Below, piece by piece: positions 10,275 to 15,649 of a DNA stretch of 64,000 nucleotides. The DNA lies in NCBI GenBank assembly GCA_963733195.1, contig CAVTCR010000033.1, positions 64,249-128,248 of the forward strand, given 5' to 3'. Under the pieces are notes generated by a model, which was not told the DNA's origin, made no database searches, and worked only from the letters and a program-made list of their open reading frames with translations. How positions within the stretch are numbered: position 1 is the first letter of the stretch; every line of letters starts with the position of its first letter. The DNA comes from an uncultured delta proteobacterium. GTDB lineage: Bacteria > Desulfobacterota > Binatia > Bin18. The position numbers were made by a program, and so were the translations under genes.

Positions 10275-10386
10275 ACGAGACTCCTTTGGGAGAAGAATAC
10301 AGAAGTTAGAAGTCAGAATCTAGAATAGTGCTTCATCGCAAAGGATTTGAGGGGTGTGTCATTCTCCCTCACTGAAGATGAGGAGT

Positions 10387-10416
10387 TGTCATTGCGAGCA
10401 TAGCTGAAGCAATCTC
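10387..10416 (+). repeat. TGTCATTGCGAG...GAAGCAATCTC palindromic repeat element
   Basis: tgtcattgcgagcatagctgaagcaatctc resembles a widespread small intergenic palindrome family. Confidence 0.5.
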
Positions 10417-10501
10417 GGTCTTCCCTCTTCTAAATTCTCAAAAGCAGCTTTGCTTTCCCTCTGTGGCTGGTCTATGCTCCGGGCAAGATTCATGAAGGAG
10501 G

Positions 10502-11815
10502 ATGGTTATGGACTGGCGTGAACGCTGCGGCGACAAGCTTGTCGCTGCCCAGGAAGCGATGAAAGCTGTGCGCGATGGAGATTCAGTGCAAGTGAACTGG
10601 CTGCATGCCACGCCGGTAACGTTATGTGAGGCGTTGCTTGCACGAAAGGATACGCTCCGCAACGTTACAGTCGGTACAATTGGTCCGCTGTTTAATTGGG
10701 ACCAGCCAGGTGCAGATCAAGCTCTGACGATACAGACACCGTACCTTGGTGCCACAACACGGCCCATGATGGAGAAGGGGAAAGTGGATTTCGTTCCGGT
10801 GATGTACTACCGCCACCATGAACTACCACCGGGCTTACGATGCGATGTCTATCTGACGCCGGTCTCGCCACCGGATAAGCACGGATATTGTAGTTTCGGG
10901 ACTGGTCTCTTCATGTCGAAGACGATGAGTGCTGCGGCACGAGTCGTGATCGCTGAAGTGCACGAAGGCTTCATTCGTACCGGTGGTGAGAATTATATTC
11001 ACGCCTCAGAAATCACACACTTTGTCGAACCTACCACGCCGCCAGCGACACTTCCGGCTACTGCACGTAACGAAGAAGAGGTCACGGCGACCGAGATCAT
11101 CTGTACGTTGGTAGCAAATGAATTGATCAATGACGGAGATACTGTCCAGATTGGACTTGGGAGCGTCTCATCACCCCTAGCGATGTATCTTGATAATAAG
11201 AATGATATCGGTATTCACACTGAAGTCATTCCCGGCGGAGTTGCGCGATTAGTACAAAAGGGTGTGATTACTGGAAAGTATAAAACGGTCAACCCGGGAA
11301 AAGTCGTTGCTAGTGCTGGTATTGGCGTGTTACCCGACGAACTCGACATTATCGACCATAATCCTAACTTCGAGTTCTATGATTTCACCTATACCGATGA
11401 CTTACGCTTGCTCGTGAATCAGAAGAACTACGTTGCGGTCAACAATGCATTGGCCATCGATCTAGGTGGGCAAGCGTGTTCGGAATCGATCGGGCCGTTG
11501 ATGTATACCGGCACTGGTGGACAGGCAATTTTTGCTGTCACCGCCGCCTACTGCAATCCTGGGAAATCGGTACTCGTCACTCCGTCAAGTTCGATCGTGA
11601 AAGGCCGACGTATCTCGCGGATCGTGCCGACATTGGAAGCTGGCAGTGTGGTGACGGCGCAGCGTGCCTTTGTTGATTATGTCGTCACTGAATATGGCAT
11701 CGCTACGTTGCGCGGCAAAAGTCTGCGACAACGAGCTGCCGCGCTTGTCGAGGTGGCACATCCTGAGTTCCGCCCGGATCTCATGAGAGAAGCGCAGCGT
11801 ATCTATCTGATGTAA
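10502..11815 (+). CDS. Acetyl-CoA hydrolase/4-hydroxybutyrate CoA-transferase family
   Basis: [32 protein letters not shown] and [10 protein letters not shown] motifs. Confidence 0.93.
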
Positions 11816-11867: not shown

Positions 11868-13925
11868 ATGGAACAGAAATTCACTAATCGCCTAGCTCAG
11901 GAAACGAGTCCTTATCTTCTCCAGCATGCACACAATCCCGTGGATTGGTATCCGTGGAATGAGGAAGCATTTGCCAAAGCCAAAGCTGAGAACAAGCCGA
12001 TATTACTCAGCGTTGGCTACTCTGCGTGCCACTGGTGTCATGTGATGGAGCGTGAATCGTTTGAGAATGAGAAAATCGCTAAGCTCATGAACGATCTGTT
12101 TGTGAATATCAAGGTTGATCGCGAAGAACGACCAGATGTTGACGAGATCTACATGAATGCGGTGCAGATGCTCACTGGTCGCGGCGGATGGCCAATGACG
12201 GTGTTTCTCACGCCGGAAGGCAAACCCTTCTACGGAGGAACGTATTTCCCTCCTGAGGATCGCCATGGCTTGCCTGCGTTTCCGCGCGTACTTGCTGGTG
12301 TTGCGCAAGCGTATTACGAACGCCCACAAGATATTGTCAACGCGACGACACAGATTCTGGAGAACCTCGAAAAGATTGCGCATCGTGAAGAGACCTTACG
12401 CCCTCTCCAAGTGGAAGCGTTGGAAAAAGCCGCCGCGACTTTAGCCCAGCATGTTGATCACACGCATGGCGGATTGGGAGGCGCGCCGAAATTTCCCAAC
12501 TCCATGGTGTTTGCCCTCTTTCTCCGTCAACACAAAGCTAGTGGAAGTGCGCAGTACCTTGATATGACACTCCATACATTGCGCAAGATGGCCGACGGTG
12601 GGATGTACGACCAGATCGGTGGTGGATTCCATCGCTACTCTGTTGATGAACGCTGGCTCGTACCCCATTTTGAGAAGATGCTGTACGATAACGCGTTGCT
12701 CGCTCGTGTCTATCTCGAAGCCTATCAGGTGACACAGGATGTGTTCTTTCGCCAAGTAGTCGAGGAGATTCTTGCCTATGTTGAGCGAGAGATGTTGCAC
12801 CCAGAAGGCGGGTTCTACTCGACGCAAGACGCCGACTCAGAGGGTGAGGAAGGAAAGTTTTTTGTCTGGAGCCGAGATGAGGTGCTACACATTCTTGGTG
12901 ATGAGGTCGGAGAGATTTTCTGCCGCTACTATGATGTGACCGATGTCGGGAATTTCGAACACTACAATATCCTCCATCCGACACTTTCGATTGAACAATT
13001 AGCAAAACTCTTCCGACGCGATGCCAATGAATTATCGCGACACCTGACCGAGGCGAAGCAAAAGCTTTTTGCCGTACGCGAACACCGGGTGAAACCTGGG
13101 CGTGACGAAAAGATCCTGACGAGTTGGAATGGGCTGATGCTCTCGGCGTTTGCCGAAGGGTACAAGGTTCTTGGTAATCCGCGCTACCTAGAAGTTGCGC
13201 GTAAGACGACCGACTTCATCTTTACTCGGCTCTACCGGGATGGGCGGCTTTTACGCAGTTACAAGGATGGTCAAGCGAAGTTCAACGCCTATCTCGACGA
13301 CTACGCATTCTTGACGGCGGCATTGCTTGATCTCTATGAAGCGACATTTGAACGTTCGTTTCTGAATCGAGCGGTCGAACTTACTGAGACGCTTCTCACA
13401 CGCTTTTGGGACGAAACAGAAGGCGCGTTCTTTTTCACGAGTAGCGATCATGAGGAGCTTATCAGTCGAACGAAATCGGCGTTTGATGGCTCAATTCCCT
13501 CCGGGAATTCTGTGGCAGCGTTTAACTTGTTACGCCTCTTCTACTTGACTGAGAAACAAGACTATCTGACCAAAGCGGAGAAGTTGCTGCGGCTTTTCTA
13601 TGATGCCATGGAGCAAAATCCATTCGGCTTCAGTCATATGCTCTGCGCGCTCGATTTTTATCTGCGCCGACCAAAGGAAGTGGTACTCTTGGGAGAAAAG
13701 CACGAGCCGCAGACACGCGAGTTGATTGCTTACATTCACAGCTTGTTTATTCCGAATAAGACGTTGATCTGTATAGACCCGCAGCAAGGAGACCCGCTTC
13801 CGAGTTTGCTGACTGGGAAGACACAGATCGAAGGCAAAGTCACTGCATACGTTTGCCACAATTTCACCTGCTCGCTACCAGTTACGAACCGAGAAGCGCT
13901 GAAAGAAGTACTGCTCTCGTCATAA
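11868..13925 (+). CDS. Thioredoxin domain-containing protein (YyaL/SSP411)
   Basis: [37 protein letters not shown] and [10 protein letters not shown] motifs. Confidence 0.95.
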
Positions 13926-13948
13926 GACATAGGCCAAAAGGGGGAGCT

Positions 13949-14455
13949 ATGCGTATCGTGGGAGTGGTGTTGCAGATCGTCTTTTTTCTCGCATTAGTGT
14001 TTGCCTCGTTGTTGGTTGCTGGTGTGATTTCTAACCGCCTGCCCTTGAATGACCCGCCTGGTTTCGGCACACGAATCTCAACGTATCTCTCTACGAATGT
14101 TGCCGAAACTTCGACTGACTCTGCTTTTCCCGAGTTAAAACTGCGCCGTTACGAAGCGCCACCGAGTTTGTTGTTTGATGTCGTACGGCGCGCTGTCCAA
14201 GGAATGAAATGGGAAGTGACTGCAATGGATGACACGAAGAATGAGATTCGTGCAGTTGTCACAACCAAGCTGTGGAAATATAAGGATGACGTGACGGTAC
14301 AAATCCAGCCTGCCCAGCCGAGCGGGAGTTGGCTGTGGATTCGTTCTTCCTCACGTGTGGGGAAGGGGGATTTAGGGGCGAACACGCGCCATGTGATGGA
14401 CCTGGTTCGTTATGTTGATGAAACCGTGCCAAAACAAGCATTGGTTACACAATGA
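13949..14455 (+). CDS. DUF1499 family membrane-anchored protein
   Basis: N-terminal TM segment; KLWKYKDDVTV and IRSSSRVGKGDLGANTRH motifs. Confidence 0.85.
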   Translation: MRIVGVVLQIVFFLALVFASLLVAGVISNRLPLNDPPGFGTRISTYLSTNVAETSTDSAFPELKLRRYEAPPSLLFDVVRRAVQGMKWEVTAMDDTKNEIRAVVTTKLWKYKDDVTVQIQPAQPSGSWLWIRSSSRVGKGDLGANTRHVMDLVRYVDETVPKQALVTQ

Positions 14456-14501
14456 TGAGTTAAGAATGAAGAGTGAAGAATTAAGAGTACGTCAGAAGGG
14501 A

Positions 14502-14711
14502 TACTCGTACCCTGTCAGGGGGATTGTGAAGGGCTTCCGTCTGTCATGCCCGCACAGCCTGTCCCAAGTTCTACTGGGACTTGTCTCAGGTTCTACCGAG
14601 AGCGGGCATCCAGAAATCTCAAGCCGAAGCCGTGAGGTTTACCCCACGGCTTCCCACTTCCGCGAGAATGATGCCGCCACAATCTCCCTCTCAAATCTCA
14701 ATGACCGAGTA
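14502..14711. ncRNA. Candidate large structured RNA of unrecognised family
   Basis: Nested stems tactcg/cgagta, agggggattgtg/cacaatctccct, ggctt/aagcc, tctg/caga and atgcccgc/gcgggcat; two GTTCTAC-loop hairpins; a gaagccgtg/cacggcttc hairpin. Confidence 0.65.
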
Positions 14712-14767
14712 CTAGCTTTCGCATAACTCTTCACACTTCATTCTTCATTTCCTAAAAAGGGGGGACA

Positions 14768-15649
14768 ATGGAGAAGCCGGTACGCTTCTACAGCGAAACC
14801 GTGCCAATGGCCGGGGTGCTATTCATGCCCGAGGGAATGGCTGCAAATGAAAAGCGACCCGGTATCGTCATGTGTCACGGATTTACCGCGGTCAAAGAGG
14901 TTCTGCTTCCAGAGATTGCACGCAGGATGGCTACCCTCGGGTATGTCACCTTAACTTTCGATTATCGTTTTTTGGGGGCGAGCGGGGGTGAACCACGTCG
15001 GCAAATCCTACCGATGCGGCAGATTGAAGATATTCGTAATGCCGTCACGTTTTTACAGAACCAGCATGAAGTGAACCCTGAACGGATTGGTTTACTGGGA
15101 GTGAGTCTTGGTGGTGCGAATGTCAGTTATGCGGCGGGAGTCGAAGATCGTGTGAAAGCCACGGTGAGTGTGTGTGGCATTGGTGATTGCGGCCGCTGGA
15201 TTCGTGATGCGTGCCACTTTTGGGAATGGAAAGCGCTGTTACAGCGACTCACAGAGGATCGACGCGAGCGGGTTGTGACCGGGAAGTTGCAATATGTTCA
15301 TGCCAAAGACATCGTCCCTGAACCTGAAAGCACCTCCGTCCTGTTCGAGCAGATTCTTCATCAGTATCCACAATGGAGCCGGGAGATCACACTGGCTTCT
15401 GGGGAGGCGCTGATAGCCTATCGCCCGGAGTCGGTCGTCGAGAAAATATCACCGAGAGCTATTATGTGGTTGCATGGCGATGCCGACGAGCGCGTGTCGA
15501 TGGAAGAATCGGTTTCGATGTTTAATAAGGCTAGCGAACCGAAGAAGCTTGTGATTCTTCCAGGCCTTGGGCACAGTGATATTATTTCGGGTCCTGGACT
15601 AGATCAAAGCGTGCCATATATCAAGGAATGGTTTGCCTTACATCTTTAA
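14768..15649 (+). CDS. Alpha/beta hydrolase (FrsA/DAP-like)
   Basis: MCHGFTA, FDYRFLGASGG, GVSLGG nucleophile elbow, HGDAD, GLGH. Confidence 0.9.
   Translation: MEKPVRFYSETVPMAGVLFMPEGMAANEKRPGIVMCHGFTAVKEVLLPEIARRMATLGYVTLTFDYRFLGASGGEPRRQILPMRQIEDIRNAVTFLQNQHEVNPERIGLLGVSLGGANVSYAAGVEDRVKATVSVCGIGDCGRWIRDACHFWEWKALLQRLTEDRRERVVTGKLQYVHAKDIVPEPESTSVLFEQILHQYPQWSREITLASGEALIAYRPESVVEKISPRAIMWLHGDADERVSMEESVSMFNKASEPKKLVILPGLGHSDIISGPGLDQSVPYIKEWFALHL

What the first reader, a model, noticed from the sequence alone, without database searches (positions are those of the whole stretch)
14462..14745. Unrecognised multi-branch structured element with twin bulged-A GTTCTAC hairpins: candidate novel ncRNA or cis-regulator
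Seen: almost the whole gap between DUF1499 and a hydrolase-hydrolase-LLM cluster folds into nested helices. These are tactcg(14502)/cgagta(14706), agggggattgtg(14517)/cacaatctccct(14678) (12 bp, one G-U), ggctt/aagcc, tctg/caga and atgcccgc(14546)/gcgggcat(14602). The innermost stem closes a 3-way junction with two sister hairpins, gtccca-A-G-TTCTA-C-tgggac (14561-14580) and tctc-A-GG-TTCTA-CC-gaga (14584-14601). They share the loop and a bulged A but have different stems. Side hairpins are gaagccgtg...cacggcttc (14626-14653) and a small GCGA-loop stem. The unit is bracketed by a 22-nt inverted repeat with 20/22 matches (14462-14483 vs 14724-14745). It lacks the SRP, RNase P, tRNA and cobalamin/TPP/SAM riboswitch hallmarks I know. 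Inference: the same loop on different stems suggests selection on RNA structure, e.g. tandem protein-binding or T-loop-like modules. It could be a trans ncRNA, a leader of the downstream genes, or a MITE-derived element. Strand is uncertain.
Basis: partly seen in the sequence, partly recalled or inferred. Interest (0 to 1): 0.85.

Follow-up and report, generated by a model that had tools for sequence, protein, structure and literature searches.

The report
Nested intergenic repeats, not an ncRNA
The strongly folding gap between two genes is three kinds of dispersed repeat inserted one inside another, with a core hairpin of the type that Neisseria Ssn nucleases cut in single-stranded DNA, so it is a piece of genome repeat ecology and not a new RNA gene.

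Summary
Every helix named is present, the 22-nt inverted repeat is 20/22, and the gap folds far better than shuffles on both strands (z about -5.3). Rfam finds nothing. The interpretation as a single novel ncRNA fails, because each helix belongs to a dispersed repeat family of this 6.9-Mb genome.

- Outer arms: tandem GARTKAA heptamers, 145 loci, 50 of them hairpins.
- Middle layer, 14502-14711: a roughly 210-nt palindromic MITE-like element, 18 loci, bounded by TA within CTAG.
- Core of that element: two inverted hairpins of the Neisseria NTS/dRS3 type. The genome holds 51 matches to the NTS consensus at 3 mismatches or fewer, against 0 in the control (PMC11893778).
- Twin GTTCTAC hairpins: tandem copies of a 22-nt unit sitting in the loop of the first NTS-like hairpin. 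It occurs 1-3 times at about 27 loci.

The orthologous gap holds only a short heptamer hairpin in one congener and is about 10 nt in another. No NTS-flanked ssn gene was found here, though a genome of the same family has one. I read this as a new variant of a known kind, of moderate interest.

The parts
13853..14455 (+). Upstream gene, a DUF1499 protein. Its stop codon TGA lies at 14453-14455.
   Evidence: ORF. Pfam PF07386, E 2e-14.
14449..14488 (.). Left arm of the outer hairpin: a tandem array of heptamers of the form GARTKAA.
   Evidence: repeats I1-I4, 14-nt periodic D1, D5, D6. BLAST depth is 50-52 hits over 14460-14479. 145 such loci in the genome.
14489..14501 (.). Remnant of the loop of the heptamer hairpin, left of the inserted element.
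   Evidence: Low copy depth of 1-6. It lies between the heptamer arm and the first TA.
14502..14711 (.). A palindromic MITE-like element. TA lies at both ends (14502-14503 and 14710-14711) and CTAG follows at 14712-14715.
   Evidence: nhmmer profile built from three other copies hits window 14514-14719 at E 3.3e-18. 18 loci cover at least 100 of 181 model positions. CTAG lies on both sides in copies C82, C65 and C24.
14542..14613 (+). NTS-like hairpin with an expanded loop. The 5' half is TGTCATGCCCGC (14542-14553) and the 3' half is GCGGGCATCCAG (14602-14613).
   Evidence: Half-sites compared with the published NTS consensus. Genome-wide class GCCCGC has 10 hairpins. 28 loci carry this module.
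14561..14580 (+). Mini-hairpin 1, GTCCCA-A-G-TTCTA-C-TGGGAC. It is the first of two tandem 22-nt units in the NTS loop.
   Evidence: (D3).
14584..14601 (+). Mini-hairpin 2, TCTC-A-GG-TTCTA-CC-GAGA. Its TCTC/GAGA stem variant is seen only in this copy.
   Evidence: The nearest relative, G001 L129, has TCTC/GGGA, a T.G intermediate.
14614..14645 (.). Spacer between the two NTS-type hairpins (AAATCTCAAGC...). It includes the 5' arm of the local hairpin 14626-14653.
   Evidence: Aligned with the spacer of other copies. Hairpin I5.
14646..14673 (-). Degenerate second NTS-type hairpin in inverted orientation.
   Evidence: Aligns with CTGGATTCCCGC-TTKC-GCGGGAATGAC of the other copies. All 51 of 51 close NTS-type pairs in the genome are inverted.
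14712..14723 (.). Remnant of the loop of the heptamer hairpin, right of the inserted element. It starts with CTAG.
14724..14752 (.). Right arm of the outer hairpin: the inverted heptamer array TTMAYTC.
   Evidence: I1-I4. The same arm, CATTCTTCATTTCC, is kept in congener G001.
14757..15649 (+). GGGGGG ribosome-binding stretch followed by the downstream alpha/beta-hydrolase gene (ATG at 14768).
   Evidence: The AAAAAGGGGGGAC-ATG stretch is conserved in G001, and G002 has a G-run directly after its stop codon.

Best explanation
The gap is a DNA-level mosaic of three repeat families inserted one inside another. It is not a dedicated RNA gene.

1. A hairpin made of tandem GARTKAA heptamers sat between the stop codon of the DUF1499 gene and the ribosome-binding site of the hydrolase gene. 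One congener still has only this layer.
2. A roughly 210-nt non-autonomous palindromic element landed in its loop at a TA/CTAG site.
3. That element is built around two inverted hairpins of the NTS/dRS3 (Ssn-related motif) type: GTCAT, a covarying 6-bp stem, a loop, the stem complement, then ATCCAG.
4. The loop of the first hairpin carries two tandem copies of a 22-nt mini-hairpin with loop TTCTA and a bulged A.

Inferred mechanism: these sequences matter as hairpins extruded from single-stranded DNA. Hairpins of this type are bound and cut by small GIY-YIG Ssn nucleases in Neisseria, where loop identity and loop extensions do not prevent cleavage. They spread as inverted doublets, much as REPINs do. 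The copy number of the mini-hairpin changes by slippage or duplication. Stems are kept complementary either by selection for the hairpin or by intrastrand templated repair.

Any effect on the two flanking genes, such as mRNA stability or decoupling of a formerly tight gene pair, would be a by-product. Shown: repeat membership, nesting, absence at orthologous sites, and the match to NTS. Inferred: the enzyme, the mode of spread, and any RNA effect.
For: - Multi-copy. The 312-nt gap gives 60 matches in its own genome. Depth by part is 50-52 for the arms, 20-23 for the twin-hairpin module and 3-9 for the rest.
- Heptamer family. 145 clusters, 50 of them in hairpin form with a median span of 100 nt. 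This locus is the longest at 301 nt.
- MITE-like family. 18 loci cover at least 100 of 181 profile positions, and the ends are CTAG|TAGTCAGTCA...TGACTGACTA|CTAG.
- NTS type. The published 28-nt NTS consensus matches 8, 12, 40 and 51 times at 0, 1, 2 and 3 mismatches, against 0 in the reversed-genome control. The dRS3 pattern with stem GC matches 25 sites against 0. Generic GTCAT-stem-loop-stem'-ATCC hairpins number 195 against 30, with stem classes TCCGGG 53, TCCAGC 25, TCCCGC 24, GCCCGC 10 and GCCAGC 8.
- Pairing. All 51 of 51 close pairs are inverted.
- Location. Only 32 of 138 hairpin midpoints lie in open frames of at least 150 codons, against 82% of the genome.
- Loop inserts of 1, 2 or 3 mini-hairpins occur in NTS loops, and G001 has them too.
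- Empty and half-filled orthologous sites. G001 has a heptamer hairpin only, and the G002 gap is about 10 nt.
- Published biology of NTS. In the passages of PMC11893778 that I read, SsnA cuts NTS only as single-stranded DNA, loop identity is dispensable and loop extensions are tolerated.
- Same taxonomic family. G009 has a 94-aa GIY-YIG gene flanked by inverted NTS.
- No independent transcription signals. There is no promoter-like or terminator-like site in 14300-14900.
- No Rfam match here or in 7 other copies.
Against: - No ssn gene flanked by NTS was found in G000. GIY-YIG (PF01541) gives only 3 matches. One is an 88-aa UPF0213-like protein with no NTS-type hairpin within 5 kb. Nothing lies between neighbouring hairpins. 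The proposed enzyme is therefore missing from this 93%-complete draft, and likewise from G001 and G002.
- This copy fails the strict NTS and SRM patterns because its loop is 48 nt. Its second hairpin is degenerate.
- No parent transposon with the same ends was found, so mobility rests on copy number, the TA/CTAG flanks and the empty orthologous sites.
- A contig from an RNA library covers 14480-14678 with one difference. Transcription, and hence some RNA-level role, cannot be excluded.
- Compensatory stem changes would also fit selection on RNA.
Confidence: 0.8

Rival explanations
1. It is a functional structured RNA, either a trans ncRNA or a leader or cis-regulator of the hydrolase-hydrolase-LLM cluster. 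On this reading the twin GTTCTAC hairpins are protein-binding modules.
For: - Very stable fold.
- Compensatory changes keep the mini-hairpin: G-C or A-T at one pair, and TCTC/GAGA here against TCTC/GGGA in G001, which would be a G.U step in RNA.
- A metatranscriptome contig covers 14480-14678.
Against: - The parts recur at dozens of unrelated loci in variable combinations and orientations.
- The orthologous gap lacks the element in 2 of 2 congeners that have the same flanking genes.
- There is no promoter-like or terminator-like site.
- Both strands fold equally well.
- Rfam finds nothing.
- RNA-library contigs may hold DNA or read-through transcripts (caveat stated).
Confidence: 0.06
2. The 210-nt element is an ordinary MITE of the IS630/Tc1-mariner type, moved in trans by one of the genome's many DDE_3 transposases. 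On this reading the NTS-like hairpins inside it are passengers.
For: - TA at both ends within CTAG (14502-14503, 14710-14715), and CTAG on both sides of copies C82, C65 and C24.
- CTAG is otherwise 3.4-fold under-represented: 7973 found against about 26800 expected.
- The genome has 26 DDE_3 (PF13358) matches.
- That IS630 targets CTAG and duplicates TA is my recollection and comes from no call.
Against: - blastn-short of both ends of all 18 copies against 22 DDE_3 regions (plus or minus 1.6 kb) gave no hit at E 0.05.
- The end motif CTAGTAGTCAGTCA at 2 mismatches or fewer is not enriched: 27 hits against 58 in the control, and the good ones are the copies themselves.
- The NTS-type hairpins also occur by the dozen outside this element.
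Confidence: 0.25
3. It is a REP/REPIN element mobilised by a RAYT (Y1 HUH) transposase.
For: - Hairpins stand in inverted doublets, as in REPINs.
- The genome has 7 Y1_Tnp matches.
- One RAYT-like gene is flanked by classic GTAG-type REPs.
- The mini-hairpin loop contains CTAC.
Against: - None of the 7 Y1_Tnp genes has a GTCATTCCCGC or GCGGGAATCCAG half-site within 1.5 kb.
- The REPs beside the RAYT-like gene are a different sequence class.
- NTS-type hairpins with plain tetraloops carry no GTAG/CTAC.
Confidence: 0.04
4. Whatever its origin, the insert now acts on the mRNA. On this reading it is a REP/BIME-like stabiliser of the upstream DUF1499 message, or a brake that uncouples the downstream hydrolase genes. 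This does not exclude the best explanation.
For: - The insert sits exactly between the stop codon and a conserved ribosome-binding stretch. In G002 these are about 10 nt apart, so the genes were probably co-transcribed.
- The fold is very stable.
- RNA-library contigs lie over the gene and over the insert.
- That REP/BIME stabilise mRNA in E. coli is recalled knowledge.
Against: Nothing has been measured. No terminator-like T-run follows any stem. Contigs cannot show transcript ends or levels.
Confidence: 0.3

Closest known systems
Neisseria NTS/dRS3 repeats and Ssn-related motifs (SRM), with their GIY-YIG single-stranded DNA nuclease SsnA (PMC11893778; passages read)
   Same: - The genome carries the 28-nt NTS consensus exactly 8 times and 51 times at 3 mismatches or fewer.
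- The conserved oriented flanks are the same, CGTCAT upstream and ATCCAG downstream, and the stem covaries.
- The repeats are intergenic and clustered.
- The paper reports that the loop is dispensable and can be extended, which matches natural loop inserts here.
- A genome of the same family (G009) has the NTS-gene-NTS unit with a 94-aa GIY-YIG protein.
   Different: - This copy has a 48-nt loop holding two extra hairpins, so it fails the strict NTS and SRM patterns.
- Its stem is the GCCCGC variant.
- No NTS-flanked ssn gene was found in this genome or its two congeners.
- Cleavage was not tested.
Loop-expanded forms may be listed there.
Neisseria intergenic mosaic elements (NIMEs): repeat units bounded by dRS3. 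I saw search listings and abstracts only; the definition is partly recalled.
   Same: Mosaic arrays in which dRS3-type palindromes bracket other short repeat units between genes.
   Different: The organism is different: a 6.9-Mb, 54% G+C soil bacterium, with no match to the Spo0A or PsaA/PsaB families. Here the mosaic is nested, with hairpin inside loop inside loop, and not linear.
REP, BIME and REPIN elements with RAYT transposases. This is recalled knowledge; the comparison is also drawn in the Discussion of PMC11893778.
   Same: Short imperfect palindromes, inverted doublets, intergenic position, and dozens to hundreds of copies.
   Different: There is no GTAG head, and no Y1 transposase is associated with them. 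The genome has a separate, classic GTAG-REP class beside a RAYT-like gene.
MITEs, including nested MITE insertions (recalled knowledge)
   Same: About 210 nt, terminal inverted arms, no coding capacity, TA/CTAG at the ends, present or absent at orthologous sites, and inserted inside another repeat.
   Different: Copies are diverged (66-93%) and no parent element was found. The interior is an NTS-type doublet and not a deleted transposase gene.
Intergenic heptamer direct repeats: TAACTGA arrays of Beggiatoaceae, Cyanobacteria and Bacteroidetes (PMC4679880, abstract read), and cyanobacterial STRR (recalled)
   Same: Tandem 7-nt units, 2-6 or more per set, in intergenic DNA close to start codons, with a patchy phylogenetic spread. 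Here 6 of 151 genomes of the phylum have them.
   Different: The unit here is GARTKAA. In 50 of 145 loci the array is followed by its inverted complement, so that it forms a long hairpin. In the TAACTGA case only one indirect repeat was reported.

Membership tests
NTS / Ssn-related motif (SRM) repeats | Match to the NTS consensus CGTCATTCCCGCGMAVGCGGGAATCYRG, or to the degenerate SRM pattern | tested here: inconclusive
   The genome matches: 8, 12, 40 and 51 hits at 0-3 mismatches against 0 in the control, and SRM 107 against 58. The window copy itself does not match either pattern because of its 48-nt loop. Its two halves differ from the consensus at 2 of 12 and 1 of 12 positions, and one change on each side is mutually compensatory (T-A to G-C).
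NTS / Ssn-related motif (SRM) repeats | A hairpin with a conserved, oriented non-palindromic flank upstream and a C just after the palindrome | tested here: met
   GTCAT precedes and ATCC follows six different covarying stems: 195 hairpins against 30 in the control. The window copy has TGTCAT...ATCCAG.
NTS / Ssn-related motif (SRM) repeats | Mostly outside genes (the paper reports 2% inside genes in N. meningitidis) | tested here: met
   32 of 138 midpoints lie in open frames of at least 150 codons, against 82% of all bases and 46 of 57 background-like hits. No gene caller was available, so 23% is an upper bound.
NTS / Ssn-related motif (SRM) repeats | A cognate small single-domain GIY-YIG (Ssn, cd10448) gene in the same genome, typically flanked by the repeats | tested here: not met
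   - PF01541 gives 3 matches. One is an 88-aa protein most like UPF0213 structures (1zg2, E 1.5e-14), with no repeat within 5 kb.
- There is no ORF between neighbouring repeats.
- The NTS-flanked 94-aa protein of G009 finds only that same gene, at 38% identity and E 9e-10.
- The draft is 93% complete.
- CDD assignment to cd10448 could not be run.
NTS / Ssn-related motif (SRM) repeats | Strand-specific binding and cleavage as single-stranded DNA by Ssn | not testable with these tools
   This needs purified protein and oligonucleotides.
MITE (non-autonomous DNA transposon) | Terminal inverted repeats, small size, and no ORF | tested here: met
   Terminal arms of about 40 nt pair with each other. 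The element is about 210 nt. The overlapping 104-aa ORF has no Pfam match.
MITE (non-autonomous DNA transposon) | Target-site duplication | tested here: inconclusive
   TA lies at both ends here, and CTAG on both sides in 3 of the 18 aligned copies read closely (C82, C65, C24). Boundaries of the diverged copies are uncertain.
MITE (non-autonomous DNA transposon) | An autonomous parent with the same ends | tested here: not met
   No hit of the element's ends near 22 DDE_3 genes. The end motif is not enriched elsewhere.
MITE (non-autonomous DNA transposon) | Presence/absence polymorphism at orthologous sites | tested here: met
   The element is absent from the same gene gap in G001 and G002.
REP/REPIN-RAYT | A RAYT gene flanked by the repeat, and a GTAG/CTAC head on the palindrome | tested here: not met
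   0 of 7 Y1_Tnp genes have the half-sites within 1.5 kb. A different REP class flanks the RAYT-like gene.
Rfam RNA families | A covariance-model match at or near gathering score | tested here: not met
   0 matches at gathering score in 64 kb. Only chance-level hits in the gap. 0 at E 0.1 or below in 7 related loci.

The most novel reading that the evidence does not exclude
The conserved TTCTA-loop, bulged-A mini-hairpin could be a second, independent recognition module. It has colonised the loops of NTS-type hairpins in a genus that has lost the NTS-flanked ssn gene. It might be the binding site of an as yet unidentified protein, possibly the remaining UPF0213-like small GIY-YIG protein, that now maintains or moves these repeats. 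If so, this genus would be a natural case of 'programmable' loop-extended Ssn substrates and of a repeat family outliving, or switching, its enzyme.
Probability: 0.12. Interest if true: 0.6.

Novelty: new variant of a known kind. Interest (0 to 1): 0.38.

Why it matters
This case warns against reading strong multi-branch folds in intergenic DNA as RNA genes. Nested palindromic repeats give the same signal on both strands.

On the positive side, it extends the recently described NTS/Ssn-related repeats in three ways.
- They occur in a soil bacterium, and widely in its phylum: 99 of 301 sampled genomes hold the Neisseria consensus at 2 mismatches or fewer.
- They can persist by the hundred without a detectable NTS-flanked nuclease gene.
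- Natural loop-expanded forms exist whose inserts vary from 1 to 3 copies. The paper showed that engineered loop extensions are tolerated by SsnA, so these natural variants are ready-made substrates for testing how far that tolerance goes and how such repeats spread.

Tried and rejected
- Rfam at gathering score and at permissive E-value, on the window and on 7 related loci: nothing usable.
- RAYT/IS200 link: 7 Y1_Tnp genes, none next to the repeats.
- IS630-type parent: 26 DDE_3 matches, no shared ends. The end-motif scan showed no enrichment.
- Fuzzy scan for the mini-hairpin with up to 5 errors: 249 hits against 155 in the control. Only hits with about 3 errors or fewer are informative, and I used the curated loci instead. 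In one search the gapless register mis-scores units with indels (for example C7_39492, C58_1794b, C61 and L139). They were kept in the printed table and in the pair counts; I discount the off-register cells they add.
- Taxonomy: the search for related loci with the neighbouring 701-aa protein gave only distant relatives from many phyla, 62% at best. There was no match to Spo0A_C or PsaA/PsaB and HIP1 is only 1.8-fold enriched.
- Plasmid collection, distant mode: no match.
- Sequencing runs:
  - No run held half of the sampled words; the best share was 0.29.
  - A contig of X4 lies on 14394-14544 with no difference.
  - An RNA-library contig of X11 lies on 14480-14678 with one difference.
  - The one 'joint' skipping 14483-14725 (X1, side 24 letters) is most likely another heptamer hairpin locus. 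I do not count it as an empty site.
  - Parts without cover mean nothing.
- Literature on heptamer arrays: the first search was swamped by protein heptamers. The second gave the TAACTGA paper.
- I found no paper describing GARTKAA arrays or loop-expanded NTS. The searches were made, and they cover only the open-access library.
Full report
**The observation.** The repeat finder recovers four inverted pairs:
- the 22-nt repeat 14462-14483/14724-14745, 20 of 22 complementary;
- the 12-nt pair 14517/14678;
- the perfect 8-nt pair 14546/14602;
- the hairpin 14626-14653.

It also shows that the two 'sister' hairpins are a 20-nt direct repeat, 22 nt apart and 80% identical. As RNA, the 312-nt gap folds at -115.3 kcal/mol on the + strand (z -5.28) and at -127.9 on the - strand (z -5.33). 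No shuffle of 100 folds as well on either strand. As single-stranded DNA, 14540-14616 gives exactly the three-way junction with two bulged-A hairpins (z -5.56). Rfam has no match at gathering score in the whole window. Under a permissive threshold it gives only three chance-level hits to eukaryotic models.

**Copy number.** The interpretation changes once the rest of the genome is searched. The window lies in a 6.9-Mb, 87-contig, 93%-complete assembly. The gap gives 60 matches there. A more sensitive BLAST shows that the parts have different copy numbers:
- 50-52 hits on the outer arms;
- 20-23 on 14543-14613;
- 3-9 on the remainder.

The 'structure' is therefore a composite of separate repeat families.

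**Layer 1, the outer 22-nt inverted repeat.** The arms are tandem heptamers of the form GARTKAA (AATGAAG, AGTGAAG, AATTAAG and so on). The genome has 145 such clusters. In 50 of them the array is followed, after a short spacer, by its inverted complement, so that it forms a hairpin with a median span of 100 nt. The locus in the window is the longest at 301 nt. A strict four-heptamer pattern matches 25 times in G000 and 0 times in the reversed control. It is found in only 6 of 151 sampled genomes of the phylum, one of which has 178 matches. 42 of the 145 cluster midpoints lie in open frames of at least 150 codons, against 82% of the genome.

**Layer 2, the helices tactcg/cgagta and agggggattgtg/cacaatctccct.** These are the terminal arms of a palindromic element of about 210 nt (14502-14711). 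A profile built from three other copies finds the window copy at E 3.3e-18, and 18 loci cover at least 100 of its 181 positions. Well-preserved copies end as CTAG|TAGTCAGTCA...TGACTGACTA|CTAG. In the window, TA stands at both ends and CTAG follows the right end. CTAG is 3.4-fold under-represented in this genome. No parent transposon was found. The end motif is not enriched elsewhere, and none of 22 examined IS630-like (DDE_3) gene regions shares the ends.

**Layer 3, the stem atgcccgc/gcgggcat and the small GCGA-loop stem.** In all copies the interior of the element is a pair of inverted hairpins: GTCAT-stem-loop-stem'-ATCCAG, and its reverse, CTGGAT-stem-loop-stem'-ATGAC. A full-text search for the half-site led to the 2025 description of the Ssn nuclease family (passages read). 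That paper reports the following.
- It defines the Neisseria Transformation Sequence as CGTCATTCCCGCGMAVGCGGGAATCYRG. This sequence encompasses the dRS3 repeat ATTCCC-N8-GGGAAT.
- The 94-aa single-domain GIY-YIG protein SsnA binds and cuts NTS only as single-stranded DNA and only on one strand.
- The gene is typically flanked by the repeats.
- The loop sequence is not needed, and extensions can be added at the loop position.

**The same repeat type in this genome.**
- G000 matches the NTS consensus 8 times exactly and 12, 40 and 51 times at up to 1, 2 and 3 mismatches, with no match in the reversed genome.
- A generic search for GTCAT, 6-nt stem, loop, complement, ATCC finds 195 hairpins against 30 in the control. 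Six recurrent stem sequences sit between constant flanks.
- Close neighbours are always inverted, 51 of 51.
- Only 32 of 138 lie in long open frames.

These are NTS/SRM-type repeats arranged as doublets.

**Layer 4, the twin GTTCTAC hairpins.** In plain copies the loop of the first NTS-type hairpin is a tetraloop such as GTAA or AAAG. In about 27 further loci (28 with the window copy) the same position holds a 22-nt unit (CYTGTCCCARGTTCTACYGGGA). From the loci printed I count it once at about 12 loci, twice at about 10 including the window, and three times at one. The unit also stands beside an NTS-type hairpin, not inside it, at three loci. Other loop inserts of unrelated sequence exist too.

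Among 44 units from 38 loci of G000 and congener G001 there are 22 distinct sequences. The pair next to the bulged A is G-C in 12 and A-T in 6 of them. The window's second hairpin has a TCTC/GAGA stem found nowhere else. Its closest relative, in G001 and 93% identical over 74 nt, has TCTC/GGGA. The two hairpins are nevertheless duplicates of one unit. Compensation in DNA palindromes can also arise by intrastrand templated repair, so it does not prove an RNA function.

**Comparative evidence for insertion.** Both flanking genes are syntenic in two genomes of the same genus, at 76-79% DNA identity.
- In G002 the stop codon is followed within about 10 nt by a G-run and the start codon.
- In G001 the gap holds only a short heptamer hairpin (AATGAAGAATG...CATTCTTCATT) before the same AAAAAGGGGGGAC-ATG.
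- G000 alone has the 210-nt element inside that hairpin.

The twin-hairpin module is found in 4 of 41 related genomes, essentially only in this genus.

**The enzyme question.** G000 has only three GIY-YIG matches. Two are in long open frames of 701 and 486 aa; their size suggests UvrC-type proteins, but I did not check them. The third is an 88-aa protein that overlaps the start of the next gene by 4 nt. That neighbouring ORF carries an ATP-binding P-loop motif (GPNGAGKST). The 88-aa protein resembles UPF0213 structures (1zg2, E 1.5e-14) and has no NTS-type hairpin within 5 kb. No ORF lies between neighbouring hairpins. G001 and G002 show the same picture.

By contrast, the NTS consensus at up to 2 mismatches occurs in 99 of 301 sampled genomes of the phylum, with 0 in all controls. 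Five NTS-rich genomes were examined, one of them (G009) from the same family. In four (G009, G291, G184, G323) a second small GIY-YIG match is bracketed by inverted NTS; in G196 the single small match is bracketed in the same way. In G009 the order is NTS at L162 1453-1476, a 94-aa ORF at 1492-1773, and an inverted NTS at 1780-1803. That 94-aa protein finds only the UPF0213-like gene in G000, at 38% identity and E 9e-10. The repeats are therefore of the Ssn-associated kind, but the cognate gene was not found in this genus. Either it is in the unassembled 7%, or it was lost, or the remaining paralogue has taken over. I could not decide between these.

**Transcription.** No promoter-like or terminator-like site lies in the gap. 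Soil metagenome contigs confirm the junction from gene into element. One RNA-library contig covers 14480-14678 with a single difference. Contigs cannot show transcript ends, and DNA may be present in such libraries. Read-through transcription of a formerly tight gene pair is plausible. A REP/BIME-like effect on mRNA stability is a reasonable by-product, but it is untested.

**Verdict.** The finding is real as a structure but is not a novel ncRNA. It is a four-level nest: a heptamer hairpin, a MITE-like palindrome, an NTS-type doublet, and tandem mini-hairpins in an NTS loop. The kind is known (NTS/dRS3/SRM repeats, NIME-like mosaics, nested MITEs). The variant features are:
- natural loop-expanded NTS hairpins with a copy-number-variable insert;
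- their persistence without a detectable NTS-flanked ssn gene;
- the heptamer-array hairpins that host them.

Noticed in passing
G000 C70:93700-94500 (locus L045 1300-2200): A RAYT-like Y1 transposase gene (L045 1456-1926) appears frameshifted after the RFWEH motif; the usual C-terminal part continues in another frame. It is flanked on both sides by several copies of a classic GTAG-headed REP (GTAGGCCGGAATAAGCGCAGCGTTTCCGGC). This is a second, separate REP system in the same genome.
   Followed up: partly
G000 C6:37899-38143 (locus L184): This is the second-longest heptamer hairpin (245 nt). It also carries a nested insert, here with a different palindrome (GTCATTGCGAG...CTCGCAATGAC). Heptamer-hairpin loops therefore seem to be recurrent landing sites.
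   Followed up: no
G000 C14:56420-56906 and C51 (about 10350-10840, reverse strand): A 487-bp non-coding repeat is shared at 98.8% by two contigs. It ends in an inverted NTS-type hairpin followed by one GTTCTAC mini-hairpin. A 92-nt part recurs at C62:208450-208545. Rfam gives no match.
   Followed up: partly
G000, for example C8:90085, C27:23419, C57:16748, C62:209248, C77:9184, C86:23520: Another hairpin family, CGTCCCAGGCTCTGCCTGGAACGG, has almost the same 12-nt flanks at six loci (one has a one-base flank difference). Looser relatives (GTCCCAGGCTCTGCCTGGGAC) occur elsewhere. It was seen as a by-product of the fuzzy scan.
   Followed up: no
G000, at least 10 loci, for example C19:75560, C58:26545, C62:344415, C62:347845, C62:356590: A conserved motif, CAAGGCGGGGCTCAAAT, directly precedes one-sided heptamer arrays. 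It may be the end of a further element.
   Followed up: no
G064 (same phylum, another family), contigs C2, C5, C12, C15, C21, C29: The same GARTKAA heptamer pattern matches 178 times, often at contig ends. This genome has no NTS match. The heptamer arrays and the NTS repeats therefore spread independently.
   Followed up: no
G009 C1 (locus L162 1440-1810): In the NTS-gene-NTS unit the 3' end of the upstream NTS runs into GGAGG (ATCCAGGAGG) just before the 94-aa ORF. The stop codon abuts the inverted NTS. The repeat thus seems to supply the gene's ribosome-binding site.
   Followed up: partly
window 14420-14432 and 14795-14807: An exact 13-nt direct repeat, GAAACCGTGCCAA, lies in the 3' end of the DUF1499 gene and the 5' end of the hydrolase gene, 375 nt apart and bracketing the whole gap (D4). 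Both sites are coding and roughly conserved in the congeners, so this is probably chance.
   Followed up: partly
whole genome G000: CTAG is 3.4-fold under-represented: 7973 found against about 26800 expected from composition. GATC is 1.35-fold over-represented.
   Followed up: no
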